Source of the DNA: Branchiostoma belcheri
Taxonomy: Eukaryota
Direction of reading: 5' to 3'
DNA: 64,000 nt
Assembly (NCBI RefSeq): GCF_001625305.1
Contig: NW_017802379.1
Location: 4,341,479 to 4,405,478, forward strand
Shown here: piece after piece, positions 3,831 through 64,000 of the stretch
How the letters are laid out: every line of letters starts with the position of its first letter
How positions within the stretch are numbered: position 1 is the first letter of the stretch
Notes under the pieces: model-generated
Databases searched by the model: none
Seen by the model: the letters and a program-made list of their open reading frames with translations, nothing else
What the model was told of the DNA's origin: nothing
Made by a program: the position numbers and the translations under genes

Positions 3831-21581
<17,751 letters not shown>

Positions 21582-45832: not shown

Positions 45833-48800
45833 TTAGTACTCTTCATCTTCATTACAGTCTTCTGTCCAGTGGCCAAAAACTGTAAGTGAAAGAGAATGCA
45901 AATGTATTGAGAAAAAGTTGAAAAACAAATTATTTTCAACAATAACCAAGTACATAATACACATATACAGTATTATGCAATGGTATAAGAAATTTATTAC
46001 TAACTTGTAGTCTCAGGACATTCACAACAAATGTTCTTAACGAAGGACAATACAGCATAATGTAAAACATTTCTCCACCTTTATGTTAAAACTTAAAAAG
46101 TCCCCCCCAAAACTAATGAAAAATTTATGGTAGTATATGACTGACCTTCACAGTTATCGCAGAAGGCTCGTTCCTCGTGCCTGTCCCCGTGATACTGTGA
46201 GTGGGAGGCGTACTCCTCATACTCCGTGGCCTGTTTGGGGCAGTCGTCTGTGTCGTGTTCGTCAAATACGTCACAAATGTCGCAGAAGAGTCGGGGAGGG
46301 GGGAGTTGTCTTAGTCTCTCTTCCCTGGTGGGGGAAAGAAATTAAGAGAAAAAATTGTTAGAATGTCCCACTCATCAAGTTTTCACTGTTTTGTATCAAG
46401 CATGTAGTACCAGAAAAAAAAAAGATGTACAAATGTCAAGATGTTAAAAAAAACTTGTTGCAATATGTCAAAATGTGGTCATGAGAACAATGAAGATTTC
46501 TATACTGTACTTCAATTGTGTTGGAACAACAGAGTATAGGTTCACATGTGGCAAACAATGTGATTTTATAAATTCCTGGATCAAACAACTGAAAAATCAA
46601 CACTGATAAATCCTGTACACAACTCTATTTCATCTTTTATTTCATCTTCTAATAAATTTCAACTTGCTGCTACAAATGTTTCAACAAGGATTTGAGAAAG
46701 ATACTACAGCAAGGACCCAACATTAGTAAGTAATACAGAACAATGACTAGAGATATTAACATTTCCTATCAATGACAAAACAGCCAACTTCCAGTCTCAA
46801 CAATATAACCATGCTGAATGAAATCCATCAACTCTCCTAATATGGGGGACACCAAATGGCCCAGAAACAGAACATTAGATGAATGGGGACTTGAACTCTA
46901 AGTTTTACAGAACATTCAACAGCTTCAAAAAGACCTGTGTGAATATACTTGTGCAGGCAGTCTGGTCTGATCATGCTTAACTGCAACACAAGAATGTAGA
47001 TGCAGTAAAAGTTAATGTTTGACATCTACCATACTCTTAGTTCCACAGCAGTGGGTTGGGTGGCAAGCTGTGTTTGCCTACCATGTAAAGTAGAGTTTAC
47101 AGTGAAAAAAAAGTCAATATAAAAACATCTTCCTAAAGTCTAAGTGGGGAGGAGGTACTGTTACATTGTACACCTCCTACCATTGTACTCCTGTAATTGC
47201 ATATTTAGCAACTAGGGGGCACTGTTCAACCATTTAGTTCCACTCTCTTGTAAGGGGGATTAGAGCCCCAAACAGATACTCACTCTTCATCGAACAGGTC
47301 CTCCCCATTCACACCACTCTCCAACTGGTCAATACGGCGGATCAGCTCATCGTTCTTCCTCTGTAGATCCACAATCACCGAGTTCAGGAAGTCAATCTGA
47401 GAAAAAGGGAGAAAAAAACGTCACATTGGCCAAGTTGTCCTTGTGTAGAGGTGGTCTCTTGTACTGGTTTGATTGTATATCTACAAAGTTTATTCAAGAC
47501 TTGAGTTGCATGGCTCTTCAGAAAAAAAAGGTGATTTAAAGAGGGCTGATTCTTCAAAAACATTCTTAGATCTGTTCATACAAAGTTCTGCAAACATGCT
47601 CCAAACTGCTGAAGATCTTTCAAATGCCATGAAAAAGGAACAAACTGAAGTGATGTTAGTTCCAACATGAAATGGTTTAGATGTCGTGTCATGGGTGAAC
47701 ATGGTCGTCTGTAGTTACCTTTAACCGAATTTCTTTGGTCTGGAGTCACCGGCCATACAGAAGAAATCCCAAAAGCCGTACAAAGAGTAGGAGTTAAGAG
47801 ACACAGGGAAGAACAAAAGGGAGACACACATTGAGATGGAGTGAAGCTAGAGAGACTTCCAAGGAAGGTACAAGTCACATTTGTTGCACAGTTATCAAAC
47901 AGTAACTATATTCTTAGGATAGTCATACATGTACATGTGTCGTATGAATTCAACTGTTTTGTGACAACGGCTGCCTTAGATCTTTGCCAGCAGTTGGTTC
48001 TGTTATAGTCTGCCTGAAAGTTCTACAACATAAAAATCGTACAATGATCTGCAACAAATGTGACTGAACCTGGTAACCGTATACCACTGTAGCATTTACA
48101 AGGAGAATTAGTGCAAGACTGACAAGACAGTTTGGGAAAGACTTGGGACACAAAAGGAAGCTGCTTGACAAGTTGACAGGGTCACATCCATATTTTGTGC
48201 ACAAGATCTATGGACACCGCATGCATCATCTGAATTCGAGGTTAAAATGAACCTGAAGAACCCCCTCCTGAACACTTACCTGGCCTTCTGCTTCTTCCTT
48301 CTCTTTTCTCAGCTTGGCCGTTATGGGATCGCCTGGAGGGAGACAAATTAAAAAGGCTTTAAGTTTGGACAGGTGGATCCAAATAATACTGAACAAGTCA
48401 GGGTCTTGTGGTAAAATTTTCCTTCTGGATCTGGTAGTAAAATTTTCAGGACAGCCATTGCATTTCTCGTGTGTTATGCCTAAACATAGCTTAATGGCAA
48501 CAAACAAAAACAGTAGTTTCCAGATGGATCCATGTAAAACTTCCACTGTTTTGAACAGAGATTTAGCGAATCATGTTTCTCAATACCACATTAAGCTATT
48601 ACATGTCCTGTAAGACAATCATACAATGATTGTACTTAGGCCTAGAAAATGATTACATATTCCAAGTCATTTTGACCTGTAATAATGTAAAAAAATACCA
48701 ACTACCCAATCTTTCTTCTGATCAAATAACGTTACCAATGAAGTTTAGTGGTTAGCTTCAAGAATGGTGATAATAATCACATGTCTTGGCATTATACAGG

Positions 48801-51800
48801 AACCTGTTACAGAAGGCATAGAAAATGTTGGTTAATTATCATCACATGAAGCACAGCAGAAGTTGAAGCATTCTTGAGCAGGATGTCTAGAATCTGTTTG
48901 AGAAAATATCTTGTTAATTGATCCTGAAGAGATAATGATGGTTAATGACAGCACCTTCTGAATACCTTAACCCAAATGTAGTACAGTTCAAGTTTGAGAA
49001 AGAAGAAAGATAATCTAACACTACATGTACCTTGGCTCCCAGCAAGAAAGTTGTACATTCGTACATACATGTAATTTACTGGTCACTTAAAATTCAGAAA
49101 GAAAATTCAATATTCAAAGTTTTGTCAATACCATACACATGTAACATTGTGTCAGAAGTCAATTCTTTTAACCTTTTCCCTGCTGACTAAGTCTCAAAAC
49201 TGATACAAATTTGGAGCCAAATGAGAACCTTGGCATCCTGGAGGTTAATGACAACATAAAGAGGGTTTTGAAATGAGAGGATTCCAAAAAGCATGTTGTG
49301 GTGCTGAGACTTTAAAATTGAAACAAAATCAAGACTTTCTGAATGTAAAGTGACCTTTGTTTTGTCCTGTTTGCTCACAAACCTGTGGGGACCTTCTCCA
49401 TGTCCTCATGCAGGTGTTCCGCATCTGTATTCAAAACAAACCCAAGCCAAGACCCCATAGGTGCTTTGCACAGAACTGACTGTTGCAGTTAGCAGGGACA
49501 TACCTGTCAAGCTGTCAAGATGACTAAGTCTTGCAATCTTTGGGTAAATCCGAAGTCATACTTCTTTTACATGCCTAAAGAATGTGCATTTTGTTTTTCT
49601 CCTCAACAAGCATGTGGTTTTCACAAGACTTTGCTGAAATTATGAGACAGAAATGTCTGTACAGTTATGTTTGTCATCAGCATACAATGTATTCTGCAAA
49701 AATTAGGCAACTTGACAGGAATGCACATTGCTAAATTTTCTATAACACAGAAGTTCTACAGCCAGTTACATACCATTTAAATGATCATTTTGTGACAAAG
49801 ATTTGGCTAATCTAGCATGTTTTAACAATAGCTCAATTAGTAGCACCAAGGACAACACCACATTTCCCTTCACCTTACAAAACCAATTCAAAACACACCA
49901 AAATTAGTTGTTCTTCCAGATTGACACTGATGTTTAGAACTGAAGACACTCTACACTGTGTAAGATCCGCACTATCAGTGGTTAAGTTTCAAACACTGCC
50001 TTTGTTTTCATGCAAGTGTCGGTATGCTGTCTTTGTCTCGTGTTGTCTGGTGGTGTTGTGAGAAGGACCTACCACACTTGAGTTCATCTAGCCTGGCCTG
50101 CATGAGCTCAAAAGAGGAGTTCAAAATGGACAGCTCATCCCCATCCTCCAGTAAGTCTGGAACTGGGGTACTGACTTTGGGGCTATACCTCGGAACACTG
50201 TCTTCAAGTTCATGTTCAAGATCGGGGTCCTTATCTAAGACATCACCATAAACGTGGTAAATTTCATTCGCCACGTATGAAATGTGCTCTAAAAAGGGAA
50301 GAAACAAAACACATCAGCTGGGATAGAAGTTCTAAGACATCAATAAGATCAAAGAAGTGTAATCATGAAATATTCCATCCATTGATTCTGCTTGAAGACT
50401 GCTTCAGAAAGCCTATGTTTAAACCACATGTAGCGTTAAAAAATCAAAAGTGGGAATCATTCAAACAATAAACTTCATAATAAATAGATTCATAACAAAA
50501 TTCAAAACTAAAGACTGCAATCCCGTACAGGATATACACAAGTACATGTTATACAGCATAATTCTGATTACACGTTTAGTACTTTTTGAAAATTGCTCAG
50601 AATCTTTAGAACACTCACCAGCTGTCATGGCGTCCATGTCTTTTTGCATCTGCTCCAGTGCTGTGTTTAAGACGTTCACCTTGTCTTCAAGTTCTTCATT
50701 GACTTCTTCCAAGGCAGAGATCTTAAGCTTCAAGCTCTCTGCAAGGTGGCTTTCACCCTTCAAATCTGTGATCTGTGAAAAGTTGAAAAAGAAGTGTTTT
50801 TCTCAGACATCTTTCTCATACAATGAGGATGATTATAAGGACAACATAGACAATTGAGCTTGTCATTGCTATAATCAGTTATGCATCCCTACAAAGAAAT
50901 GTTTACTGCTATGCACAATGATATCACTTTGGTTACCTGTGATTGGTACTTGGTAAGCTCCTCATCCTTTTGTTTGACCAGTTTCTCGGTGATGTCCACT
51001 GCTTTCTGCAGCGACTCACGTTCACCTTCAAACTCTCGCTGTAAGGTGTTCTCCCTAAAACCAACACAATGCATTAGCAAAGAAATGCACATTACAATGT
51101 CCTGGCAGCTTTTAAAAGACTGCAGTTCATATGTGATACCAATAGCTCCTACTGAGGAGGTTCCATCCTAAACTAATTAGGCAACAAACATTTCATTTTG
51201 CACCTTTTTTAATATTAAAAATCCACAATAAAGTCACAATAAGTTCAAGGGAGACACTCTTGTGAGAAGAAGCTTAGGAGTCTATATTTTTTGTGTAGGT
51301 TAAATCCTTACCTTTTTGTACTGGAGGAAGGAAGGCAAGAAAATAGGGAGCAGGCAGCTGTCAGTTACAAGCTTTTGACCCATATATAGTCTGCTAGGGG
51401 TGACTTAACACCCCTTCAGAGTTACTAATTGTGTCTGGTGATAGCTAGCAGCATGTCATTCAGAGGCAAAGCCAAGAGCAAGTGCTTAAAAAGACTAAAG
51501 CTTGTGGCACATGCTTATAAAATCATCTACATTTGGTCTAGTAGTGAGACCATGGACTGTAAAACAAGAACATATCACAAGTTGCTTAAGAACAGTACTG
51601 GATACACTGCAGCAAATTAACGATCACATTAGACACTACAGAAACTCCACTTACCGTGATTTGTAGTCGTCTAGTTGTTGCTTCAATGAGTTTTGAACTT
51701 CAGATAACTGTTCATGAACAAAAGGATACAGTTAGAATGTAATTCTGTGAAATGTTACTTTCAAAAGTAGCCAGAAAAAGTCAAGAGACAGTCTTTCAAC

Positions 51801-54800
51801 AAAAAGATAGAAACAAGTCAAGTTGTGAAGAATCATAAAACGACAATCACAAGAAGGCAACTAAAACAAACCGAATGCTTGGGAAACATTTTTATAACTC
51901 AGGAATCATACAAGATAGAGGGATCTCAGATACAAAAGACATACTTTTGGTGGCAACAATTACCACAACTCAGGAAACACAAGAAACAACTTCAGCATGA
52001 CAGAGACAATTCAAAAGAAAGTCCAAGGTCACCAACAAGGTCAAACAGGTCAAAAGATGAAAGATCAGTAAAACACAACACCAAGTCAATCATGGTACAA
52101 AACCATTCAACCATCTAGTTAGAAACTTCAAACCACCAGACATCCACCAGTGAATATCATATCTCATTCAAACACTTGCATTAAGAAAAACAGCTGTTGT
52201 TCAACCTCATTGAAAAATAGAACAGATAACCTCCACACATGCCATGCCATGAAAACACGAGTGACAGACCAAACAATCACACACCCAGGCAACACACCTT
52301 GTTCCCAATGCACACCAGGTTAGTGGTATTTACATTGTATAAACAAACAAACAAATAAACAAACAAACAGACAGACAGACAGACAAACAAACAAAATACA
52401 AGGTGTGTGCTTGTGTCAGAAAGTAGTGCACATCTGGTATAAAAGCACAGAAATAGCTCAATAGGGAACAAGAGTACTATTTAGTTGCTTCAAAATGGTC
52501 AATATTTGTAAAACGTATGGGTCAATATGTGTAAAGTGTATTTTAGAGACAATAAAAAACTGTAGGGGCAGTGCAGCAGTGAAGTACATTTGCATCAAGT
52601 TAGCCAGGACAAGTGTACAGGAAAATCATGTAATATTATGGTCATCACTAGAAAGGACTATCAACATTATGGGGCAAAAGGGTCATGAATACACCAGGTC
52701 ATCTTATAGAATATGCTTAGATCCCTTAATGTCATTCATAGATATGGAAAAAAAGCATCATTATTACTGACAAAGTTGCCAGGTTGACACAGTACACCAC
52801 AGACAGCAAAGCATGAACGAAGTTCTGCATTTGACCAAGTGGAACATGTAAAAGGTAGTTGTACACAATGTATGTAGCCCTAACCACTGACATAGTTGTT
52901 ATACTGTGCAATCCATGCAAAGAGTATGAAAAAATCTCTCCAGCATTTGTATGGGTTAGTACATGAGCAACCTTTGACCCCAAGCCTGTACACCTGAATG
53001 GAGGAGGCCTCCGTGAGGCTTGTACCTGAGATCGCTCTAGATTGAGCCTAACAGACAGGCCTTCTACCTCGGCTCGCAGACTGTTGTTCTCTGCCTGTGC
53101 CTTGGAGAGGGAAGCCTGCGTTTCTGACAGGGTGGATTGACCTTGCTGCTCAGGAGTGGGGAGGGGGGTGAGAGAGTACAAGTTGAACTTGCCTGTTCTT
53201 ATATACACTACTATAAAGTTGCTATACAATGTACAAATAACAGTCTTTCAACTGTATCTGCCTTGAAAACTGTTAGCTGATGGTCAAGGTTTGAAGAAGT
53301 TGGGAGAAGTCATTGGTTAGGCACAGTTACTACACATGCCAGGACCAAATTATAACTGCAACACAAAAGACCATGACATCTGAGTTAAGCTTAAAAGCAC
53401 GATTCTCAGCTAATATGACACAGACATTAAGCTGACACAAGGCAAAATTTCAGGCATGAACAATTTCAGTGCTGGATCCTTTTTGTGTCACGTGCATGTA
53501 CTACAAGCACTATTGTGTTATAAACAAGACAACTACCAGGCAAAAGAAAAAATGTTTTGCTACTTGCAAATAATTTAACACACCAAGAAAATCTGTTTCC
53601 ATCACAGAGAGGCCAGAAGTGGGCTTATGCAAAGAGAAGCATGCTAGTCCACATACATGTATCAGTTAGAGAACAACAATGGGGTCACAGACAAAAGCAC
53701 AGCCACATGCACATTCAGATACATGTATGTTAGACATGACATTGTTACAGAGAACATAGAAAAAACCTTCCATGGAGTATGTTGAAATCTCTGCAAAATT
53801 ATTGCACATCATAATCAACAGGTATTCTCATCAGGATCATTAACAAATGACCTCACTGCATTATTACACTATTTGTACACAATCATTAGTAATATACAAT
53901 GTAGATTATTGTCACCTTGGTCTCACTATGTCAGTGTGTAACATAATAACTTAAGTAAAGCTACCATTTTGATTATGGCTTTCCATTGTTTTTAAGACTC
54001 AGCAATATTCACAAATTGATTTAAAATGACACCATTTGTATGGTTTTGTGATGATTTCTTTTTGCCTAAGACTTGAATCTGTATTGTCTGACTTGCTCAG
54101 GCACCTTTTGCGTTTCTGCTGCCTGGGACTTAGTAGTTTCTAGCTCAGTGTTGACATTTTGCACTTCCTTTTGTAGGTCCATGATGGTTTTGGACATCTC
54201 AAAGACTTGAGATTCTGCTTGCTGAAAGGTGAAAAAAAAATTGGATATTAAACCCAGGGTGAACAAAGAAAATACTGTTACAGATGTCATCAAATATTGA
54301 TGGTAAAATTGCACCTATATTTACCATTTGAGAATAATTAATACCCAATATGCTTAATATCCAATAATCCATACCTTCACAATGTCTGCATTCTCTTGTT
54401 TCTTTGTTTCTACATCAGTTTCTAGTTGTGTCTTTAGTGACTCCAGTTCTGTGATTTTTCCCTGCAAACTTTCAGCTTCCTTTTCCTTGTTCTGTATTGA
54501 AATAGAAATACAAACACTTATTCACATGTACAGGACTAGTGCATGTATTCCTACAAACTACAAAGTCCAATAAAGATTCATAGGGAAGTATGAGACTGTG
54601 ACAACATCACACATTTAAACATATTTAAACTTTCTGGAAGTATATGAGGGTCCTTCATGCAATCCTTGACTTCATGAATTCCCCATATGAACCTCTATAA
54701 TAATTCCTGCTGGCTTCCAGCCACAGCCATTTCCAGAGTCCTTTTGACATTTCTGCTGGTCAACCTTCCCCCACCCATGTGCTGTCAAAACTACTGTGTC

Positions 54801-57800
54801 CGGATAAACAAATCCACAGCAAAGCCACCCAAAACAATACTTCCAGGAAAGAAAAAAAAAACAACACAAACAATACAACTTAAGTCTTTTGATATCGAAA
54901 ATACCTGAACAATCTGTGCATTCTGTTGTTGTTTGGTTTCCATGTCTTTTTCTAGCTGTGCCTTGATAGATTCCAGCTCTTTGATTCTTCCTTGCATGGT
55001 TTGAGACTCTTTTTCCTTGTTCTGTTCAAGAAACATTGTGTAGAAAAAGAAATTAGTTGTGTAAAGTAAGGATGTTGTTGAACACATTTTGTACAGGTGT
55101 TACTTAACAGCATTGACCAACTGTCAATAGTCCCAAATTAACATTTTACAAACCTTAGAGAGTTCCACAGCCTCCTGTTGCTTGGACTCCACATTTTTCT
55201 CCAGTTGTTTCTTCACAGTTTCAAGTTCCGACAATGAGCCCTGTAAACTTTCAGTCTCTTTTACTTTTAGCTGTGGACAAGAAAATGTTAGGAAGATAAG
55301 CACTATGATTCAATTAAACAGTAAAAACTTACAGCACATTTGTCAAATCCAGCTGTAACTATACTTCTAGGAAGTGCAGAATCTGATTTATGATAATATA
55401 TGTATCAAAACTTAAGGCATGTACAGCTGACCTCTAGTTTACTGGAGAAGTCCTCCTTAGCCAGCTCCAGGTCCTGGTAAGCCTGGGCCTTCTGGGACTC
55501 CATGTCTGCGATCTTCCTCTGGAGCTTCCCAGACTCCATCTGGTATTGCTGCACAGGAAGTCAGAACACTGGTGTGAGATCTATGGCAACAAGCTATGAT
55601 GATGATGATGGAGTGAGACCATATTATTAAACTTGGCATGCTTATGCCTTGCTCTAGTTGGAACAATCTGGTAGTTTTTTCCAATATTTTTTTAAAAATG
55701 AAATACAGCCATTCACTTTGATGCTAATGTATCAACTTTAGAATTTTATTACTGGAACATGACCACTTGAGTAGCAAAACTCGCAACAGAAGCCTTGATC
55801 ATTTTACACTGGCCTTTTTACTTTCATTCTACTATGAGATTGGACGTTAGATGTTAATCTGACTATATCAGTAGCAATGTTGATGAGAGTTGAACATACT
55901 TGTTCCTTGTCCTCAGATTCCCTCTTGAGCTTCTTGAGTTCTTTTTGCATCTCCCTTTTCTGGGTCTCGGACTCGTTCAGTCTGGTCTGGAGGTCACCTG
56001 ACTCCTTCTGCCCTGCCTGGGGCATCATGGGAACAAATCATGAACATGACCACCCCATACATGTACATCAATACCATGCATCCAACAAATCTATACTTTA
56101 TAAATACAAATGTAAAGGCATAGAAACTTCACCTTCAGTTTTGTGTCCAGGTCACTTCTAGCTTGCTCTAAATCTGACTCCAGATCAGATTTCTCAGCCT
56201 CCAGCTCAGAGATCTGTCTGCTCAGGGCCTCCTGTTGGTCTTGAGCTTTCTAGAATGGAAACATCAGGAAGGGAAAAAATAAGGCCATGTGCTCTACAAA
56301 AATCCAACTGTCTTCAAAGTTGTTATAAAAAAGGCTGTCTTAGATCCTTGTAGGTGGTTGGTTCTGTCACAGCCTGCTTTAAAATCTATGACATATATCT
56401 ATGACATCAAAGTTGCATGACAACCTACAATGAATGTGACCTCACCCTAAAAATACAAATACAAGGTATGAAAAACATAAAATACCATAATCCTTCTTAC
56501 CTCTGCTTTTTCTTCAGAGTCTATCTTGAGTGCCTTGAACTCCTTATGGATCTTGTCCTTGTCCTCCTCCACTTTGGTAAGCTTCTTCTGCAGTTCTGTC
56601 ACCTCTCGTTCTCCTTGCTGTCAACATCATAAACAACATAGTTCCAAATTTCACTTCACTTATTTATGAGTTTTCAATGAAAATTCTTATGATCTCATGC
56701 AGTATGCATATGGTATGTGCATAAAGTATATAAGTTCATAAAGTATATAATGTATTATTACTACAACAGGGCATGTATTATTACTACCACAGGGCAGGAG
56801 ACTCGACAACATTCAGACTTCTGGGTAATCCTTGGCTTCCTGAATTCCCCCATGTCCACATTCCTGCTGGCTCCTGGCCAGATTCTGAGACCTTTCTGTC
56901 ATTCTGCATGTCAATCTTCCCCCCACCCATGTGATATCAACCTAGTCTATCCAGACAAACCCACAGCTAGCCACCCCAAACAATACTTCCATACCTAGCA
57001 GGGTTAGACAAGTCCCATTGCCCACTTGCCCAGGGCAAGTAAAAGTACTGTTCGGGCAAGTAAATATCCCCCTGCACTTGCCCGATTGGGCAAGTAAATT
57101 TTAGGATGCAAAGTATAGCCCCTGCATTATTTCGATCAAATTTTAAACAATTTTGATGAATAAAGCATCCAATAAATAAACTCTTCTATAATAAAATAAT
57201 TTCCTTTCTGCTAGTAAAATGAATAGAAATGTGTCATATTTTGGGCAAGTGAAAAGTTGGTTCGGGCAAGTGAAAATGACCAGGTACTTGCCCGGTAGGG
57301 CAAGTGGATTTTTGAAAACTTGTCCAACCCTGCCTAGAAGTTAAGGTTTCTCACCTTGGTGACCTTGTTTGTTTCAGCTTTGGAAGAGTCCAGATCCTTC
57401 TGAAGTTGGTCTCTCTCTGTTTCTGTCTCAGAGAGTTTCTTCTGAAGTTCTTCTTTCTCTGACTGAGCTTGCTGTAAGAGTGTAAGAAAACATCCACTGA
57501 ATTCATTGTACCACATTTCATTACTGGAAAATGCTTGTATTAAAATGTGAAACAACGAAACAAAATGTATCATTCAAAATTGAGACATGATATACACTAG
57601 AGAGAAAAGCTGCACCAACCTTTGTCTGGTTTTCTGTTTCCTCCTTGAACTCGTCAAACTCCTTCTGAAGATCTTCCTTCTGAGACGTGACAGTTTTGTT
57701 GTTCTTCTGTAGATCAACTATCTCCTGCTGGGCTTGCTAAAGTTCAAAATAACAACATTAACATGTAAGTAAACACTGTGTTATCTGTGACACTTAAATC

Positions 57801-60800
57801 AACTTTGCTATGATGGCAAGATTTTTTAGGCATTTTTGTGCTTTTTATAACACAGCTGAGTCCTTGAGTCATTTTATCTTCAAGTTGACATACCTTAAGT
57901 TTCTGGTCAGTAGTGCCCTTCAAAGCCTCGGTTCCCTTCTGCAACATGTCCTTCTCAGCTTCAAGGTCAGATATTCTCTTCTCAAGGTCAGAGATTTCTG
58001 ACTGGCTTTGCTGTAATGCAAAAAAGTACAACAGTTTAGCAGACTCTTGACATTACATTTAATCTTCTCTCCACTGCATAACCCCATAACAAGTAGAGAA
58101 TTGGTAGCCAAATGTCTACTTCGGTGTGCTAAATCTTTTAAGTAACTGTTTTTAGACTTACACTTTCTTAGACAAATGATTTTAAGATGTTCTAACCTTG
58201 GTTTGGTCTTCAGAAAGGTTCTTAATTCTGTCCAGTTCTGTCTTCAAGTTCTCAATTTCAGCATCTCTGTCAGCAACCTCTCTGGCGGCTGTAGCGGTGG
58301 CCTTTTTCTCCTCCTGTGGGAGAAACAAACACTTGTCATTACTGCACATCTTCATCTTTCTTTTTTTCAGTACAATTTTTCAACATCAAGGTCTTTCCCA
58401 TACCAGATGGTGCATAGGTGCAATGGTGCAATCTCCATTCCAATAGACCTTGGGCCACACAAGTTTGTGCAATCTAGACAGCAGGAGGCTAGTCCAATGG
58501 TATTGGTGTGTGTTCCACTCCCATACTCTTTCACAAGTGCTAAGCAGAGAAAGCAGTAGGTACCATGTTTAATATCTTTCTACCATGTTTAATATCTTTG
58601 ATATGACTCAGTCAGGGATCGAACAATCTACTAAATGCAAGGCAGACACTCCACTCACTTGGTCATTGCACTGGTTCCAATTAGTTAGCATACATGGTAA
58701 GAGATCACGGAAAAGGAAGAAAACCCCAGGTTTTAGACAGGAAAACATGCACTTCAAAGTTTATGATGAAAAATAATTGCAATATCTTACAGCTGACCAC
58801 ATTTGAAGAAGCCAGGAAAAAGTTTTCAAAAAGAAATATGACTAAAATTTAGAAACAACAGAAAATGAATACAGCCTTACCAATAGAGTTGTAGTAGCCT
58901 GAAACATTTGGTCCTCTGCCTCCTTCCTTAAAGTCTCAAAGTCTTCCAGTACTTCCTTCTTCTCTTTCTCCAGGTTAGCAATGCTCTGCAGGTAGTTGTC
59001 AGTCCTTTCTTTCTCAGTCTAAGAGAGGTACAATAGACATGTAGTTGGTGAGGTGTGTGGAACCCTATGTATGGATCTTCATTGTTCTCACTGTATCAAC
59101 TGTTGCTATACATGCAGTTACCACATTCTCTTTACTACTATGTCTGGATTGTATAGTTAGCAAGCAAACAAGCAACATTTTGACATTTTATGATTTAGTA
59201 TAAAAATGGTTCAAGCCATTAATACTCCAAAACATGTTTTGTGGTAAATAAGATGTAGGAAAAATCCTGTTACATATGGCCATGTAAAGAAAATTTTATG
59301 TGAAGATTCAAAAACAGTGACTGCATATAGGTTACATAAGTAACAGTTGGGAGTGATGGAATAAAGCTATATCTCAAGATGTAGACTGATACACATAAAG
59401 TACCTTTTGTGCAACATTTGTGTCTTCTTTCATTGTCTTGATCTCGTTGTTAAGTTTCTCTTTCTCGGTCTCAAGGGCTGTGATCTTGCTTTGGAGTTCC
59501 TGACTGGCTTCTTGATGTTGCTGGAGAATAAACATCAAGCAGGTCAGTAACAGAATGAACATGTTGTAGATCCCAGGTTTTCCTTTCATAAAACAAGAAT
59601 GCTGGGCTGACATCCAATCAGCACCTAGTTATGACAACACCAACCAGCCAATCAGCACCAAGGACAGGTACCAAAGCCATAGCTGAAATGACCCAATCTG
59701 CAAAATGCTGAGGTTGACCAATCAGTACCAAGAACAATGCTACCTTTTTACACCTGGAACATCATTAGCATTGGCCAATAAGCCACATGGTCTTGGAGAA
59801 GAGCAACCAATCAGCGCCAAGGTAAATACTGACCCTGACCATCACTATCGATAGCCGACACAGATGCAACTCATCATAACCTTTGATAAACCATCATGTC
59901 AAACTAATCTTTAAAAAAAGGATTATTTCAAACTTACAAAAATGAGTGAGAAGAAAAGATCGGTACTCTATTCACCTCAGTTTTCTCTTCTGTTTCCTTC
60001 TTGAAGGAGCTAAGCTCCCCCTGGACCTGTTCTTTCTCAGCTTCCACAGCCTGGATCTTCTTCTGGAGGTCAGCATTGGTTTCATCTCTTTTCTGTAACA
60101 GAAAGGCATGTGTTAGAAACTTCAACAGGACTTAAAATACTGATACCTCAGAAATGACATTACTTCACACATGGTCTTGTGTCAACAGATTTTTAAAGTT
60201 TCAAACAGGTAAGGAACAGAAAGACTAACCTTGATCTTGTCGTCAGATTTCTTCTTGGCAGCCTTCATGTCTTCTACGAGCTTCTCTTTGTCTGCCTCTG
60301 CCTTGGTGATCTTCATCTGCAGTTCTTCTCCCTTCAGTTTCTCTTGCTATTCATCAATGCAAAGAAAAACAGTCTATAATTTCATTCCCTTACTTGTGCT
60401 TTTACACAGACATCTAAGAGATAGAACAATATTATGAGTGTCTTCGTTCTTGTTGCTGATAATGTTGAAATAGATATGAGATGAAATCTAACAACAGAAA
60501 AACCTCACCTTCAGGTTTTCCTCCAGTTCTTCTTTAACATTCTCCAGTTCTTTCTGTACTTTTTCCTTTTCAGCCTCCACTTCAGAGATCTTGTTTTGTA
60601 ACTCCCAGGTCTCCTTCTGGCCTTGCTGTTTGATAGAGAGGGCAACAAAATAAGAAAAGTTGCTTCGGATATTTCCTGTTTTAACATACCAACTAATCAA
60701 CTAATATGTAAGAAGAGATCAGCTTTATGTCTATGGTGACAATTGACAAATCAACATCAAGCTACTAGCTAATCAGCAGCAAGGCCATAGCAGAGATCAC

Positions 60801-63800
60801 TCAATTAGCAAAATGTTGAAGTTGACCAATCAGCACCAAGGACAGAACAGTAGTAGCCACTCAGCATCAAGACCATAGCTGAGACCAGACCAGTTAGCAA
60901 CAGAAAAAAGTTGACCAATCAGCACCAAGGACAAGGACAATGTAATTGCTTGCATTGTCCAATCTGCTTCAAGGTTTTGGAAAAGGGCAACCAATAAGCA
61001 CCAAGGTAATTACTGACACTGTCTTACCTCCAGTTTTCCCTCCACCTCTCCCTTCAGCCTCTCCATGGTTTTTTGCAGGTTACTGTTTTCTGTTTCCATC
61101 TCAGCAACTCTCTTCTGTAGCTGGGCACTCTTCTTCTGTTCTAACTGTTCAGAAAGGTAAGAAACAGTTAAAACTCTCCCAGTCATTTACAACTTCCAAA
61201 CTTTTAGAACATCAACTAACTTTTTTTAGACTACCCCTTGCAGGAAAACACAGCAAATGCAGAACACAGAAAATCACCACGCAAGAAAACTAGGCACACT
61301 TACGTCAAGTTTTCCTTCATATTCGCCCTTGAATCTGCCCATGTCCTTGTGGAGGTTCAGGTTTTCTGCTTCAAGTTCTGTTATTTTAGCCTAGAATAAA
61401 AAGTACAAGAATTAGCTTACGTTGGGGGAAGGCAAAATACACCCATCTTGTAGATTCACAACTTTGTATCAAACTTTTTAACCTTCTCACTGCTGAGTAA
61501 CACAACACATAACAGCTACATTAGCATGGTGAAGGTTAATATATGGAAGCATTTTTCCCTACCTGGAGTTGTTCTCCGTCCTGTTTCTCCTGAGACAGTT
61601 TACTCTCCAGCTCCCCTTTAGTGCTGCCCATGTCCTGCTCCAGCCTTTTGTTCTCATTTTCCAGCTCAGCTATTCTCTTCTGGAGCCCCTTGATGTCTTT
61701 CTTAGCTTGCTGCAAAGACAAAGGAGATTTTAGAATACTGCATCTTCTGACATCTTTTGACAAGCCTGTACAGTAAGACTTATAGAACAAGAAATCAGAG
61801 ATTTCAGGAGGTATTTTGGGCAAACTTTGTTGTGACCTTCAAACTCAAAGACACAAACCCATAAGTCATCACTTTTCTATCCAGAAGTAACAAGACCATA
61901 AATGATACATCTAAAGTTTTAACTCACTTCATTTTTCTCCTCATACTCCTTCTTCCTCTCCTCCAGTTGTTGTTGAAGTTTGTTGATGACATCTTCCAGG
62001 TCCTTGGTCTTCAGCTGGAGTTGCTCAGACTCCTTCTGGCCTTTCTGAAAACCCAACCAATCCACTCTATTCAGTCTACATTTTCATTCAGTAACGACAT
62101 TGCCAAAGTGTGGGCCAGAGCAATAAATATGTCTCTGTTTTATTTTGTAAAAGGTCACCACAACTGAAGCTTATGTTCTAGAAACTAGTCAGGCTAGGCC
62201 CTGCTCAAAGACTTCTAAAAGCTTACAAATTGAAAGTCACAAAATATGACAAAGTCACAAAATATGACTATTTTAGGCTTGGGTATGGCAAACTGAGACA
62301 AATAGAATATGTACCTCCAGATTGCCCTCTAGATTACTCTTCATGTTGCTCATCTCTTCCTGCAGCTTGTTTCTGTCAGCCTCCATGTTGGATAGCTTCT
62401 TCTGGAGGTCCTCTTTCTCACGCTGTTCTTGCTATTGTCAGGGATGGAAAAATGCCTTTTAAACATAAATGCATAAATGTCTATGGTGACAACATCAAGG
62501 TGGTAGCCAATCAGCACCAAGGTCAGAGATGACATCATCCAATCTGCAAAATGTTTGGGTTGACCAATCAGCACCAAGGACAAGAACAATGTTACAGCTG
62601 AGGTTTTGCACCTATTCTATTATTCAGTATTTTAAAAAAGTTAAAATTTACAATTTCAAGTATCCCAGATATACAATTCATTCCTTTTTTTGTCATCATT
62701 GCATCTACTGGTCTTTACAGAGAAAACATGACCAACCTCTGACTTGACTTTGAACTCTTCCTTCATGATTTCGATGTCTTTCTCCAGTTTTTGCTTAGCA
62801 GCCTCCAGCTCTGCAATTCTTTTCTGCAGACCACCGCTGTCCTTCAGTTGTTGCTGTTGAAGTAAACAGGTTTCAAATCAAAGTATGTACATATGTAACT
62901 GATAGAAACTTAAACAAAGCCCAAAGCTGAAGAGCATTTGAATGGTTACAAAAGAATCATTATCTGTGTAACAGAACATGTTTTTTGTTTGTTTTTCAAG
63001 GTAATTTCAAGGTGAGATTGTGATATGACTTTTTCTTTTCAATTCACTACTCTTAACTGTATTGCTTGCATATAAATAATTTTTGGTATGAGCCATCAAC
63101 AAACGAATGGCAACACAAGGCTCTTGTTGATTTGATTTAAAAAAAAACCTGTTGCTATTTTCAAATTTACATGATACAATGATGATGATTACATGACACA
63201 TGTTCAAGACTACATAGTGATACACACTTACCTGCACATGCACAATACACCTTTGATATCATGCAAAGTTCTACATCTAATGTACAGAGATGGAAAATCA
63301 AATCACACAGGACAGCAGATTGGGAGATGAAATGGTTTTCTTTATTGGTAAAGTATATGAAATGTTACATGCTGATGATATTTCAACAGCTTACTGCAAA
63401 ACATAACTCACCAGAGCCGTGCAACTACAAATGATGAGAAAAGATGAGGGGTACAGCCATCACAGGAAGAGGAATGTAATGCCATGCAGAGATATTGGCA
63501 GAAAATAATGCACCATGCAGAATGATGATGTATTACAGCAGATGACTTCCCATCATGCATCAGGGAATGACAGAACATGCTCTGAACTGCTCCCATCATG
63601 CAATAGTGACAGAAAGGCACATCAACCAAAAGACAAAAGAACAAACCGCTGTCTTCTCCTGGACTTCTGTCTTGAAGGAGGTCATCTCTTTCTGGAGCTG
63701 TTCGCGCTCAGTCTCCATCTCAGACACCTTGGTCTGAAGCTGTTCTTTTTCCGACCTTTCTTGCTATTAGAAGGAAAATGTTTAAGAAGCTTTAATACAC

Positions 63801-64000
63801 AACCTGAGTATCCTGAAACACAGCGATACACCTTTTCAAAAATGAATTTTGTAGGACGCATGCTGATCCAAAGAATGCACGAAGGTGGCGATTGAATGAC
63901 GATCGTACAACATATTTGATCTGGCTCTTACATGAGTGTCATGCAAATGTCACAATGTCCATTACTAGTTTTTAAAGCCCCAGAACATGGCCATACTGTT
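45833..64000 (-). CDS. CLIP1: CAP-Gly domain-containing linker protein (CLIP-170/restin homolog), 3' portion; the 5' exons with the CAP-Gly domains lie beyond the window edge
   Basis: The C-terminus matches CLIP-170's tandem CCHC zinc knuckles. Exon ~46146-46326 encodes [19 protein letters not shown]...FCDNCE (human: CDICDCFDLHDTEDCP ... [21 protein letters not shown]). The last exon 45833-45880 encodes [14 protein letters not shown] then TAA. Upstream are about 25 phase-0 exons of 117-123 nt, each encoding a ~40-aa heptad-rich unit of the form QQxQxExxELQxKIxxLExEKExLxxEL... Examples are ~59403-59519, 60497-60620, 57893-58015, 54382-54490 and 53029-53150. Further 3' exons are ~47284-47396, 48279-48331, 49384-49425, 50074-50291, 50598-50752, 50940-51057 and 51653-51706. 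Confidence 0.8.
52339..52396. repeat. (CAAA)n/(CAGA)n compound microsatellite
   Basis: Direct read, in a CLIP1 intron. Confidence 0.95.
54660..54880 (+). repeat. Dispersed SINE-like repeat, copy 1 (a ~75% identical copy at 56812-56998)
   Basis: The shared core is CTGGCTyCnGCCA...TTCTGC...TGTCAAnCTTCCCCCACCCATGTG...ACCCACAGCnAGCCACCCnAAACAATACTTCCA. Copy 1 ends in an A-rich tail (GAAAGAAAAAAAAAACAACA). Confidence 0.4.
56812..56998 (+). repeat. Dispersed SINE-like repeat, copy 2, truncated at its 3' end by the MITE-B insertion
   Basis: Homologous to 54660-54850. It ends exactly at the MITE-B target site. Confidence 0.4.
56999..57340. mobile_element. MITE family B (342 bp) in a CLIP1 intron
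   Basis: The 15-bp terminal inverted repeats are CAGGGTTAGACAAGT...ACTTGTCCAACCCTG. It is flanked by a 5-bp direct repeat CCTAG on both sides. The interior has repeated palindromic GGGCAAGT(A/G)AA...ACTTGCCC motifs and is AT-rich in the centre. Confidence 0.6.
59590..59860. repeat. Intronic minisatellite-like array of a ~55-bp unit carrying TTGACCAATCAGCACCAAGGACA (further arrays at ~60740-61010 and ~62480-62600)
   Basis: Two to four degenerate copies per locus, all containing CCAATCAGCACCAAGG. They are found in alternate introns of the CLIP1 exon array and not elsewhere in the window. Confidence 0.5.

What the first reader, a model, noticed from the sequence alone, without database searches (positions are those of the whole stretch)
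51600..64000. CLIP-170 coiled-coil rod encoded by a tandem array of ~25 equal-sized, phase-0 exons, with evidence of exon-pair duplication
Nearly every exon from ~52 kb to the window edge is 117-123 nt and in phase 0. Each encodes a ~40-aa coiled-coil unit with the same register, QQ.Q.E...LQ.KI..LE.EKE.L..EL.... Adjacent units are near-duplicates, for example 54382-54490 versus 54903-55020. A CCAAT-containing ~55-bp minisatellite recurs in alternate introns (~59.6, 60.8 and 62.5 kb), which suggests the duplicated unit was two exons plus one intron. Such symmetric exon arrays allow length variation of the rod by exon skipping or unequal crossing-over.
Basis: seen in the sequence. Interest (0 to 1): 0.55.

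Follow-up and report, generated by a model that had tools for sequence, protein, structure and literature searches.

The report
Amphioxus CLIP-170 rod: one-repeat-per-exon array
The window holds the 3' half of a lancelet CLIP-170 (CLIP1) gene whose coiled-coil rod is built from at least 25 ancient copies of a 39-amino-acid repeat, each on its own in-frame 117-base exon; this is a tidy case of growth by exon duplication, but the proposed duplication of exon pairs is not supported.

Summary
The main observation holds. On the minus strand, 63763-53026, there are 25 consecutive AG...GT exons, all phase 0-0. Twenty-one are exactly 117 nt. The others are 147+87 (=2x117, intron displaced by 10 codons), 138 (+1 heptad) and 123 nt. 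Twenty-two single-exon units align without gaps in 39 columns. Protein self-identity is 0.30 at lag 39 against a background of 0.10.

Seven further exons of mixed phase end in two CLIP1 zinc knuckles and ...NEDEEY-stop. The best homologues are Branchiostoma CLIP1-like models, so the CLIP-170 call is right. The CAP-Gly heads lie outside the window.

Each unit is 4 heptads plus 1 hendecad. The hydrophobic period is 3.545 = 39/11, not 3.5.

The duplications are old: mean identity is 48% nt and 29% aa, and third codon positions are saturated at 0.33. Only U22/U23 (74% nt) and U21 are recent.

The CCAAT repeat lies in introns 2, 7 and 10, not in alternate introns. Its copies are 75-82% identical while the flanking exons are at background similarity. 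It looks like later insertions of a repeat element rather than a relic of exon-pair duplication.

Verdict: real but ordinary in kind. Alternative splicing and total exon number remain untested.

The parts
63647..63763 (-). Rod exon U1, 117 nt, phase 0-0 ([39 protein letters not shown]). The sequence upstream, 63764-64000, is intron, so the array continues beyond the window edge.
62737..62853 (-). Rod exon U2, 117 nt, phase 0-0
62315..62431 (-). Rod exon U3, 117 nt, phase 0-0
61928..62044 (-). Rod exon U4, 117 nt, phase 0-0
61563..61709 (-). Rod exon 5, 147 nt. It holds unit U5 (39 codons) plus the first 10 codons of unit U6. There is no GT at the canonical unit boundary.
61304..61390 (-). Rod exon 6, 87 nt, holding codons 11-39 of unit U6. 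147+87 = 234 = 2x117, so the intron is displaced by exactly 30 nt.
61028..61144 (-). Rod exon U7, 117 nt, phase 0-0
60509..60625 (-). Rod exon U8, 117 nt, phase 0-0
60230..60346 (-). Rod exon U9, 117 nt, phase 0-0
59976..60092 (-). Rod exon U10, 117 nt, phase 0-0
59404..59520 (-). Rod exon U11, 117 nt, phase 0-0
58881..59018 (-). Rod exon U12, 138 nt (46 codons = 39 + 7, one extra heptad). Divergent unit.
58197..58313 (-). Rod exon U13, 117 nt. The second most divergent unit (8-28% aa identity to the others; only U24 joins the unit tree later).
57894..58010 (-). Rod exon U14, 117 nt, phase 0-0
57620..57736 (-). Rod exon U15, 117 nt, phase 0-0
57355..57471 (-). Rod exon U16, 117 nt, phase 0-0
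56501..56617 (-). Rod exon U17, 117 nt, phase 0-0
56133..56249 (-). Rod exon U18, 117 nt, phase 0-0
55900..56016 (-). Rod exon U19, 117 nt. Its junction to U20 is reproduced in the B. belcheri model XP_019614194.1.
55432..55548 (-). Rod exon U20, 117 nt, phase 0-0
55154..55270 (-). Rod exon U21, 117 nt. 58-62% nt identical to U22/U23.
54905..55021 (-). Rod exon U22, 117 nt. With U23, the youngest duplicate pair (74% nt, 64% aa).
54375..54491 (-). Rod exon U23, 117 nt. Partner of U22.
54105..54221 (-). Rod exon U24, 117 nt. Divergent.
53026..53148 (-). Rod exon U25, 123 nt, phase 0-0. Last unit of the array.
45833..51707 (-). C-terminal part of the same gene. Seven exons: 51707-51655 (53 nt), 51054-50937 (118), 50772-50619 (154), 48332-48280 (53), 47396-47284 (113), 46324-46146 (179), 45879-45833 (47, includes the stop). 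Phases are mixed. They encode two CLIP1 zinc knuckles and the tail ...NEDEEY*.
62477..62600 (+). CCAAT-box repeat element, copy in intron 2 (between U2 and U3). Lacks the 3' part.
60727..61021 (+). CCAAT-box repeat element, copy in intron 7 (between U7 and U8). Contains an internal ~83-89-nt direct duplication and ends 7 nt from the donor site of exon U7.
59605..59837 (+). CCAAT-box repeat element, copy in intron 10 (between U10 and U11)

Best explanation
The region is the 3' half of an amphioxus (Branchiostoma) CLIP1/CLIP-170 gene on the minus strand.

Shown: its coiled-coil rod is a tandem array of a 39-codon unit, one unit per 117-nt exon, with every exon starting and ending in phase 0.

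Inferred origin: the array arose by repeated tandem duplication of a single exon with its intron. Nearly all of these events are ancient, because silent sites are saturated. Only U21-U22-U23 record a comparatively recent local round.

Inferred constraint: exon length has since been held exactly, because each unit is a complete coiled-coil module of four heptads plus one hendecad (11 core positions per 39 residues, period 3.545). An indel would break the register, whereas adding or removing a whole unit would not. The one +7-codon exon adds exactly one heptad.

Inferred later events: the introns evolved independently. One intron moved by 10 codons. Several introns were enlarged by repeat insertions: the CCAAT element three times, a second element twice, and one MITE-like element.

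Function, by homology with CLIP-170: the rod dimerises the protein. It also spaces the microtubule-binding CAP-Gly heads (outside the window) from the zinc-knuckle tail, which mediates autoinhibition. The 984 residues seen here would span about 146 nm as a continuous coiled coil.
For: Exon structure:
- All 25 exons have AG/GT boundaries and are phase 0-0. Twenty-one are exactly 117 nt, and the CDS reads through 1222 codons to a stop.
- Two rod or C-terminal junctions (U19|U20, X1|X2) and three further C-terminal junctions are reproduced in independent B. belcheri gene models.

Repeat:
- The 39-column alignment is ungapped.
- Self-identity at lag 39 is 0.30 against 0.10 background.
- In-register nt identity is 0.484 against 0.30-0.37 shifted.

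Age and selection:
- Pairwise identity by codon position is 0.49/0.63/0.33.
- There are no stops and no prolines in 984 aa.
- U22/U23 are 74% nt identical, and U21 joins them.

Coiled-coil module:
- Hydrophobic columns are 9, 13, 16, 23, 27, 30, 34 and 38.
- The Fourier peak is at period 3.545 = 39/11 (power 15.9), against 0.1 at 3.5.

Identity:
- CLIP1_ZNF matches twice, E=7.6e-18.
- PDB 3e2u and 2hqh, both CLIP-170 zinc knuckles, match.
- The best hits are Branchiostoma CLIP1-like proteins at 85-86% identity over the aligned part.
- The CLIP-170 domain plan (CAP-Gly heads, dimerising coiled coil, two zinc knuckles of which the first mediates autoinhibition) is taken from PMC8664194.

Intron elements:
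- Only introns 2, 7 and 10 share the CCAAT element, and only introns 16 and 22 share another.
- Every rod intron longer than about 400 nt for which shared repeats were found (introns 7, 10, 16, 22) carries such an element.
Against: - No transcript data were available. Exon boundaries are predictions from sequence, supported for only a few junctions by another species' gene models, one of which is chimeric.
- The N-terminal CAP-Gly half and the start of the array lie outside the window, so neither total unit number nor full family membership was seen.
- Coiled-coil formation is inferred from sequence periodicity and composition, not from a structure.
- Single-exon duplication is inferred from the youngest cluster only. 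Older events are too diverged to resolve unit size: lags 1 and 2 are equally enriched.
- The profile of the unit found no other CLIP1 protein among 1.84 billion representatives. No full-length amphioxus CLIP1 was recovered either, so the comparative picture is thin.
Confidence: 0.8

Rival explanations
1. One reading: the array grew by duplication of blocks of two exons plus the intervening intron. The CCAAT minisatellite in every second intron would be the relic of that intron.
For: - The CCAAT element recurs in three introns of the array, always in the same orientation.
- Units two apart are as similar as adjacent ones: lag-1 identity 0.597 and lag-2 identity 0.598 on codon positions 1+2, both p about 0.002.
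Against: - The element is in introns 2, 7 and 10, a spacing of 5 and 3 units, not in alternate introns.
- There is no alternation in similarity: lag 3 is 0.567 and lag 4 is 0.554. The adjacency excess loses significance without U21-23 (p=0.14).
- Exons flanking the three introns are at background similarity (0.44-0.60, third positions 0.26-0.44), while the element copies are 75-82% identical. The element is therefore far younger than the exons.
- In the similarity clustering of units, U2, U8 and U11 group together. That mixes 'upstream' and 'downstream' flanks.
- The copies share a discrete start, and two share an end, with unrelated flanking intron sequence.
Confidence: 0.06
2. The exons are not all constitutive. 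The array is a set of cassette exons, and skipping them produces CLIP-170 isoforms with rod lengths quantised in 39-residue (~5.8 nm) steps.
For: - Every exon is symmetric (phase 0-0) and a multiple of 3 nt.
- Each unit is register-neutral, at 39/11 periodicity.
- 7 of 25 donors have a pyrimidine at +3, which are weaker sites.
- From my own knowledge, not checked here: vertebrate CLIP-170 has rod-region splice variants of 11 and 35 residues.
Against: - No transcript evidence was available.
- All 25 units keep intact ORFs and splice sites despite saturation at silent sites, which implies each is used and selected.
- The one independent model covering two units joins them consecutively.
Confidence: 0.25
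3. The array is a cluster of mutually exclusive exons, in the manner of Dscam or myosin heavy chain, with only one or a few used per transcript.
For: Tandem duplicated exons of identical size and phase are the typical substrate for mutually exclusive splicing (PMC9741552, abstract listed).
Against: - Joint inclusion is in frame, so nothing enforces exclusivity through the reading frame.
- Introns are 116 nt or longer, so there is no steric block.
- The only conserved intronic element has no complementary partner on either strand of the window.
- The units are only 29% identical, and together they give a rod of the length expected for a CLIP-170.
- The B. belcheri model includes U19 and U20 together.
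Confidence: 0.03
4. The regularity is an artefact: an assembly duplication, or decaying pseudo-exons picked out of a coiled-coil-like background.
For: None beyond the general risk of predicting exons from sequence alone.
Against: - The units are 48% identical at nt level, so they are not collapsed or duplicated reads.
- All have open frames and canonical splice sites, and third positions are less conserved than first and second.
- The frame continues into conserved CLIP1 zinc knuckles.
- Some junctions are confirmed by another species' models.
Confidence: 0.02

Closest known systems
CLIP-170 / CLIP1 (restin) and Drosophila CLIP-190
   Same: - Two C-terminal CCHC zinc knuckles (CLIP1_ZNF).
- An acidic tail ending in an aromatic residue (...DEEY against human ...DDETF).
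- A roughly 1000-residue proline-free coiled-coil rod upstream of the knuckles.
- The best hits are annotated CLIP1-like proteins.
   Different: - Here the rod is an overt 39-residue tandem repeat with one repeat per exon.
- A profile of the unit found no other CLIP1 protein at E<=0.001 among 1.84 billion representatives.
- The CAP-Gly heads were not seen, because they lie outside the window.
Repeat proteins built from symmetric duplicated exons: nebulin (~35-residue modules), titin PEVK (~28-residue exons), fibrillar collagen (54-bp exons). Cited from general knowledge.
   Same: Equal-sized, in-frame exons, each encoding one structural repeat. Growth by tandem exon duplication. Length is potentially adjustable by exon skipping or unequal crossing-over.
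   Different: - The fold is a two-stranded coiled coil, not an actin-binding helix module, a disordered spring or a triple helix.
- The unit is 39 residues (4 heptads + 1 hendecad).
- No super-repeat was detected.
Mutually exclusive tandem duplicated exons (e.g. human events reviewed in PMC9741552; insect Mhc, PMC2257972)
   Same: Tandem homologous exons of identical length and phase.
   Different: - There are 25 or more units, all compatible with joint inclusion.
- No feature enforcing exclusivity was found.
- The units are far more diverged (29% aa).
Non-heptad coiled-coil periodicities (stutters, hendecads; e.g. lamin and intermediate-filament rods, PMC6704074, listed)
   Same: A 4-residue insertion relative to heptads (a stutter, equivalent to one hendecad) interrupts heptad continuity.
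   Different: Here the stutter recurs strictly every 39 residues, close to each exon junction. The whole rod therefore has a 39/11 period rather than an isolated discontinuity.

Membership tests
CLIP-170 / CLIP1 family | Two C-terminal CCHC zinc knuckles (Pfam CLIP1_ZNF) | tested here: met
   PF16641 E=7.6e-18, two stretches, score 64.3 against a cutoff of 25. PDB 3e2u_E CLIP1 E=8.5e-11 and 2hqh_E restin E=1.2e-5.
CLIP-170 / CLIP1 family | Long central dimerising coiled coil | tested here: met
   By sequence only. 984 residues with 0 Pro; composition E 18.8%, K 15.8%, Q 11.3%, L 10.2%. Regular a/d-type hydrophobic columns. Sharp hydrophobic period of 3.545. No structure or dimerisation test was done.
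CLIP-170 / CLIP1 family | N-terminal tandem CAP-Gly microtubule-binding domains | not testable with these tools
   The 5' part of the gene lies beyond position 64000. A full-length amphioxus protein could not be retrieved.
CLIP-170 / CLIP1 family | Acidic C-terminal tail ending in an aromatic residue (EEY/F-like) | tested here: met
   The CDS ends ...CNEDEEY*. It aligns with the human tail ...CNDDET(F) in 3e2u.
CLIP-170 / CLIP1 family | Closest relatives are annotated CLIP1 proteins | tested here: met
   128 hits. The top hits are Branchiostoma CLIP1-like proteins at 85-86% identity, followed by CLIP1 of many animals, nearly all with PF16641.
Tandem exon-duplication repeat array (symmetric exons) | Consecutive exons of equal length and identical phase | tested here: met
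   21 of 25 exons are 117 nt, and all 25 are phase 0-0.
Tandem exon-duplication repeat array (symmetric exons) | Exons homologous to each other in register | tested here: met
   Ungapped 39-column alignment. In-register identity is 0.484 against 0.30-0.37 shifted. Self-identity at lag 39 is 0.30 against a shuffle maximum of 0.148.
   Mean identities at lags 1/2/3/4 are 0.597/0.598/0.567/0.554. The shared element is in introns 2, 7 and 10 only. Flanking exons are at background similarity.
Mutually exclusive exon cluster | A mechanism enforcing exclusivity: frame incompatibility, steric hindrance from short introns, or competing complementary intronic RNA elements | tested here: not met
   All exons are multiples of 3 in phase 0. 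The shortest intron is 116 nt. No reverse-complement partner of the conserved intron motif exists in the window.
Minisatellite (regular tandem repeat) for the CCAAT sequence | Head-to-tail copies of a constant unit | tested here: not met
   TRF at minimum score 30 reports no array at 59.6, 60.8 or 62.5 kb. Motif spacing is 31-89 nt. Only intron 7 has an internal 83-nt direct duplication, at 79.5% identity.

The most novel reading that the evidence does not exclude
The 39-residue exon is a register-neutral coiled-coil cassette of 4 heptads plus 1 hendecad, with the stutter located near each exon junction. Any whole exon can then be added, lost or skipped without disturbing the hydrophobic seam. 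Under this reading, amphioxus would tune CLIP-170 rod length in ~5.8-nm quanta by alternative splicing or copy-number polymorphism. That would be a coiled-coil counterpart of the nebulin and titin 'ruler' exons, and a lineage-specific rebuilding of the CLIP-170 rod.
Probability: 0.2. Interest if true: 0.5.

Novelty: new member of a known kind. Interest (0 to 1): 0.3.

Why it matters
This is a clean natural example of exon structure coinciding with a coiled-coil structural module: one exon equals four heptads plus one hendecad. It is useful for three things: teaching and testing ideas on how long rods grow by exon duplication, studying how register constraints freeze exon length over long times, and asking whether rod length in a microtubule plus-end protein can be tuned in discrete steps. 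It also flags a locus that automated annotation in at least one amphioxus assembly has broken into small or chimeric models. It does not reveal a new kind of system.

Tried and rejected
Searches that led nowhere:
- A homologue search with 663 aa of rod plus C-terminus returned nothing, because the 8000-candidate word list was saturated by generic coiled coils.
- A search with the distinctive U11-U14 stretch also found nothing. The amphioxus rod is therefore not retrievable from that database.
- The look-up of encoding contigs for the three Branchiostoma models (P0001, P0002, P0124) returned 'not on record'. No orthologous locus, and no sequence beyond 64000, could be obtained.
I used the 39-column unit alignment instead. 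Its 103 hits are unrelated repeat or coiled-coil proteins, apart from one B. belcheri fragment.
- An exact scan of metagenome contigs for the 24-nt core of the CCAAT element gave 0 hits. This is uninformative, because the collection is not expected to hold amphioxus DNA. Genome-wide copy number of the element remains unknown.
- Literature searches for CLIP-170 plus amphioxus (0 papers), and for tandem exon duplication or stutter/hendecad plus exon, found no description of this architecture.

Ideas considered and rejected:
- A higher-order block duplication, for example U1..U5 against U16..U20. The lag-15 mean is 0.57, p=0.27.
- Concerted evolution. The units are too diverged.
- An RNA docking/selector system. 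No complementary motif was found.
Full report
**What is in the sequence**

The region is eukaryotic, about 39% G+C, and the gene lies on the minus strand. I looked for stop-free stretches bounded by AG and GT and then fixed four boundaries by hand. This gave 25 consecutive exons between 63763 and 53026. Every one has a canonical AG acceptor and GT donor and begins and ends in phase 0.

Twenty-one exons are exactly 117 nt. The exceptions are 61709-61563 (147 nt), 61390-61304 (87 nt), 59018-58881 (138 nt) and 53148-53026 (123 nt). Upstream of the first exon, 63764-64000 is intron, so the array continues beyond the window. Rod introns are 116-956 nt, median 234.

**Is it a real repeat?**

The 22 units that each sit on a single exon align in 39 columns without a single gap.

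- Self-identity of the 984-residue rod is 0.30, 0.31 and 0.28 at lags 39, 78 and 117. The mean over lags 1-130 is 0.10, and the maximum in 200 shuffles is 0.148. Multiples of 7 reach only 0.06-0.13.
- At DNA level, in-register identity is 0.484 against 0.30-0.37 for shifted registers.

**What gene is it?**

The same frame continues through seven more exons: 51707-51655, 51054-50937, 50772-50619, 48332-48280, 47396-47284, 46324-46146 and 45879-45833. Their sizes are 53, 118, 154, 53, 113, 179 and 47 nt, with mixed phases. The frame ends at a stop, giving 1222 codons in the window.

The last about 70 residues carry two CLIP1 zinc knuckles (Pfam PF16641, E=7.6e-18, two stretches). They align to the solved human CLIP-170 zinc-knuckle peptides 3e2u and 2hqh. 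The protein ends ...NEDEEY.

A database search with the non-coiled C-terminus returned 128 proteins, nearly all with PF16641. The top hits are 'CAP-Gly domain-containing linker protein 1-like' from Branchiostoma belcheri and from a B. floridae x B. japonicum hybrid (85-86% over the aligned part), followed by CLIP1 of many animals. The host is therefore an amphioxus, and the gene is its CLIP1/CLIP-170.

The CAP-Gly heads would lie beyond 64000 and were not seen. Independent B. belcheri models reproduce the predicted U19|U20 junction, the X1|X2 junction and three C-terminal junctions. Those models are short (139 aa) or chimeric (325 aa), which shows that this locus is poorly annotated there.

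**Anatomy of the unit**

Strongly hydrophobic columns are 9, 13, 16, 23 and 27. Columns 30, 34 and 38 are weaker, and column 20 is mostly Lys. The spacing 4-3-4-3-4-3-4-4 followed by 7-3 into the next unit amounts to four heptads plus one hendecad, that is, five heptads plus a 4-residue stutter.

A Fourier transform of hydrophobicity over the whole rod has one sharp peak at period 3.545 = 39/11 (power 15.9). There is essentially nothing at 3.5 (0.1) or 3.667. The rod has no proline in 984 residues and is 56% E+K+Q+L.

The polar stretch from column 35 to column 8 of the next unit spans the exon junction. The 138-nt exon is 39+7 codons, exactly one extra heptad.

I infer that each exon is a complete coiled-coil module that leaves the register unchanged, and that this is why exon length has been frozen. 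As a continuous coiled coil, the 984 residues would span about 146 nm. This is my calculation, using 0.1485 nm per residue.

**Age and mode of duplication**

- Mean pairwise identity of units is 48% nt and 29% aa.
- By codon position it is 0.49, 0.63 and 0.33. Silent sites are thus at the out-of-register background, while the protein pattern is conserved.
- The only young relatives are U22/U23 (74% nt, 64% aa; 14 identical, 11 synonymous and 14 non-synonymous codons) with U21 (58-62% nt).
- Neighbouring units are more alike than distant ones. On all positions the lag-1 p value is 0.0009, but it rises to 0.14 once U21-23 are removed. On codon positions 1+2, lags 1 and 2 are equally enriched (0.597 and 0.598) while lags 3 and 4 are at background.

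This is a neighbourhood effect of local duplication, not a period-2 superstructure. No longer-range block duplication is detectable.

**The intron repeat**

The motif CCAATCAGCACCAAGG (up to 3 mismatches) has 12 hits in the whole 64-kb window against 0.66 expected. All are on the + strand and all lie in three introns: after U10 (59.6 kb), after U7 (60.8 kb) and after U2 (62.5 kb).

These are introns 2, 7 and 10, not alternate ones. TRF calls no tandem array there, and motif spacing is 31-89 nt.

An all-against-all intron BLAST shows that only these three introns share this sequence, at 75-82% identity. Only introns 16 and 22 share another element of about 187 nt, at 73%. The alignment shows a common discrete start (ATGTCTATGGTGACAA...) in introns 2 and 7, and a common end (...CCAAGGTAAnTACTGAC) in introns 7 and 10, with unrelated flanks.

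The exons flanking these introns are at background similarity. U2/U7/U10 are 0.44-0.60 identical and U3/U8/U11 are 0.50-0.59, against 0.53 +/- 0.05 for U1-U11. Their third codon positions are 0.26-0.44 identical.

A neutral intron segment cannot stay 75-82% identical while silent sites of the adjoining exons are saturated. The copies are therefore much younger than the exon duplications. The simplest reading is three insertions of a repeat-family element, or, less likely, intron-to-intron conversion.

Introns 7, 10, 16 and 22 owe their length above 400 nt largely to such elements. Whether the element is dispersed genome-wide could not be tested, because no amphioxus genome is searchable here. 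A metagenome scan found nothing, as expected.

**A displaced intron**

Exon 5 (147 nt) is unit U5 plus the first 10 codons of U6, and exon 6 (87 nt) is the rest of U6. The reconstructed U6 aligns in register, at 54% aa identity to U5 and 51% to U7. No GT exists at the canonical boundary.

The new intron sits after the conserved Leu-Gln at columns 9-10, at CAG|G. Sixteen of the 25 exons likewise end in AAG or CAG. The sum of the two exons is preserved at 234 nt.

This could be intron loss followed by gain at a proto-splice site, or a 30-nt slide. I cannot distinguish between the two.

**Comparison with what is known**

The CLIP-170 domain plan is CAP-Gly heads, a dimerising coiled coil, and two zinc knuckles of which the first mediates autoinhibition (PMC8664194). 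The part of it visible here fits.

A profile of the 39-residue unit, searched against 1.84 billion representative proteins, gave only 103 hits at E<=0.001. The top hits are unrelated repetitive proteins, and the only relevant one is the B. belcheri fragment. No CLIP1 from any other animal appeared. The overt 39-residue repeat is therefore not a general CLIP1 feature at this sensitivity. The comparison is weak, however, because full-length amphioxus proteins were themselves absent.

In kind, this resembles other proteins made of symmetric duplicated exons, such as nebulin, titin PEVK and collagen (general knowledge). It does not look like a mutually exclusive exon cluster. Joint inclusion is in frame, introns are 116 nt or longer, and there is no complementary intronic element.

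I found no paper describing this architecture.

**Verdict**

The exon array and the CLIP-170 identity are confirmed. The claims of near-duplicate neighbours and of an exon-pair duplication unit are not, except for the single young cluster U21-U23.

The feature is a genuine and neat lineage-specific elaboration of a known gene by a known mechanism. Its potential interest lies in a possibly length-tunable, register-neutral rod, which needs transcript and population data to test.

Noticed in passing
window 61304-61709 (-): The intron position is shifted by exactly 10 codons within one repeat. The exons are 147 + 87 nt instead of 117 + 117, with no GT at the canonical boundary. The new intron sits at the conserved LQ| (CAG|G) site. 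This is a candidate case of intron sliding, or of loss followed by gain.
   Followed up: partly
window 56999-57333 (intron 16): A MITE-like insertion of about 335 nt. It has terminal inverted repeats (CAGGGTTAGACAAGT ... ACTTGTCCAACCCTG, read directly from the sequence) and CTAG-like flanks. Internally it has a 70-nt direct repeat (57033-57102 / 57243-57312, 76% identity) and GGGCAAGT palindromes.
   Followed up: partly
window 56827-56991 (intron 16) and 54661-54845 (intron 22): A second dispersed repeat of about 187 nt at 73% identity, shared by two otherwise unrelated rod introns. It contains ...CCCCCACCCATGTG... and may be a SINE-like element.
   Followed up: partly
window 59605-59837, 60727-61021, 62477-62600 (+): The repeat element carries several perfect CCAAT boxes in an NF-Y-like context (GACCAATCAG), all antisense to CLIP1. 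Whether they bind NF-Y or drive or modulate transcription is unknown.
   Followed up: no
window 43433-44359 (+): A 308-codon open frame encodes the C-terminal two thirds of a Golgi pH regulator / GPR89-type protein (Pfam GPHR_N E=1.3e-22, ABA_GPCR E=8.2e-42). It is convergent with CLIP1, with the two stop codons about 1.5 kb apart.
   Followed up: partly
window 50011-50313 (-): An open stretch in CLIP1 intron 28 encodes an acidic, Pro/Ser-containing peptide (...[55 protein letters not shown]). It is not present in the B. belcheri C-terminal model. It could be an alternative exon or could be chance.
   Followed up: no
B. belcheri models P0001 (139 aa) and P0124 = XP_019614194.1 (325 aa): The orthologous locus in B. 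belcheri is annotated as short or chimeric models. P0124 joins U19-U20 to about 200 unrelated residues and then to the post-rod exons. P0001 has a 7-residue insert (TKEIRLK) that is absent from my exon chain. This suggests an assembly or annotation problem over the repeat array.
   Followed up: partly
window 52341-52395: An (AAAC)n/(AGAC)n microsatellite of about 14 copies in the intron between the last rod exon and the first post-rod exon.
   Followed up: no
window 6001-10000: A stretch with raised G+C (0.51-0.54 against about 0.40 elsewhere) and strong positive AT skew (0.13-0.19). I did not examine it.
   Followed up: no
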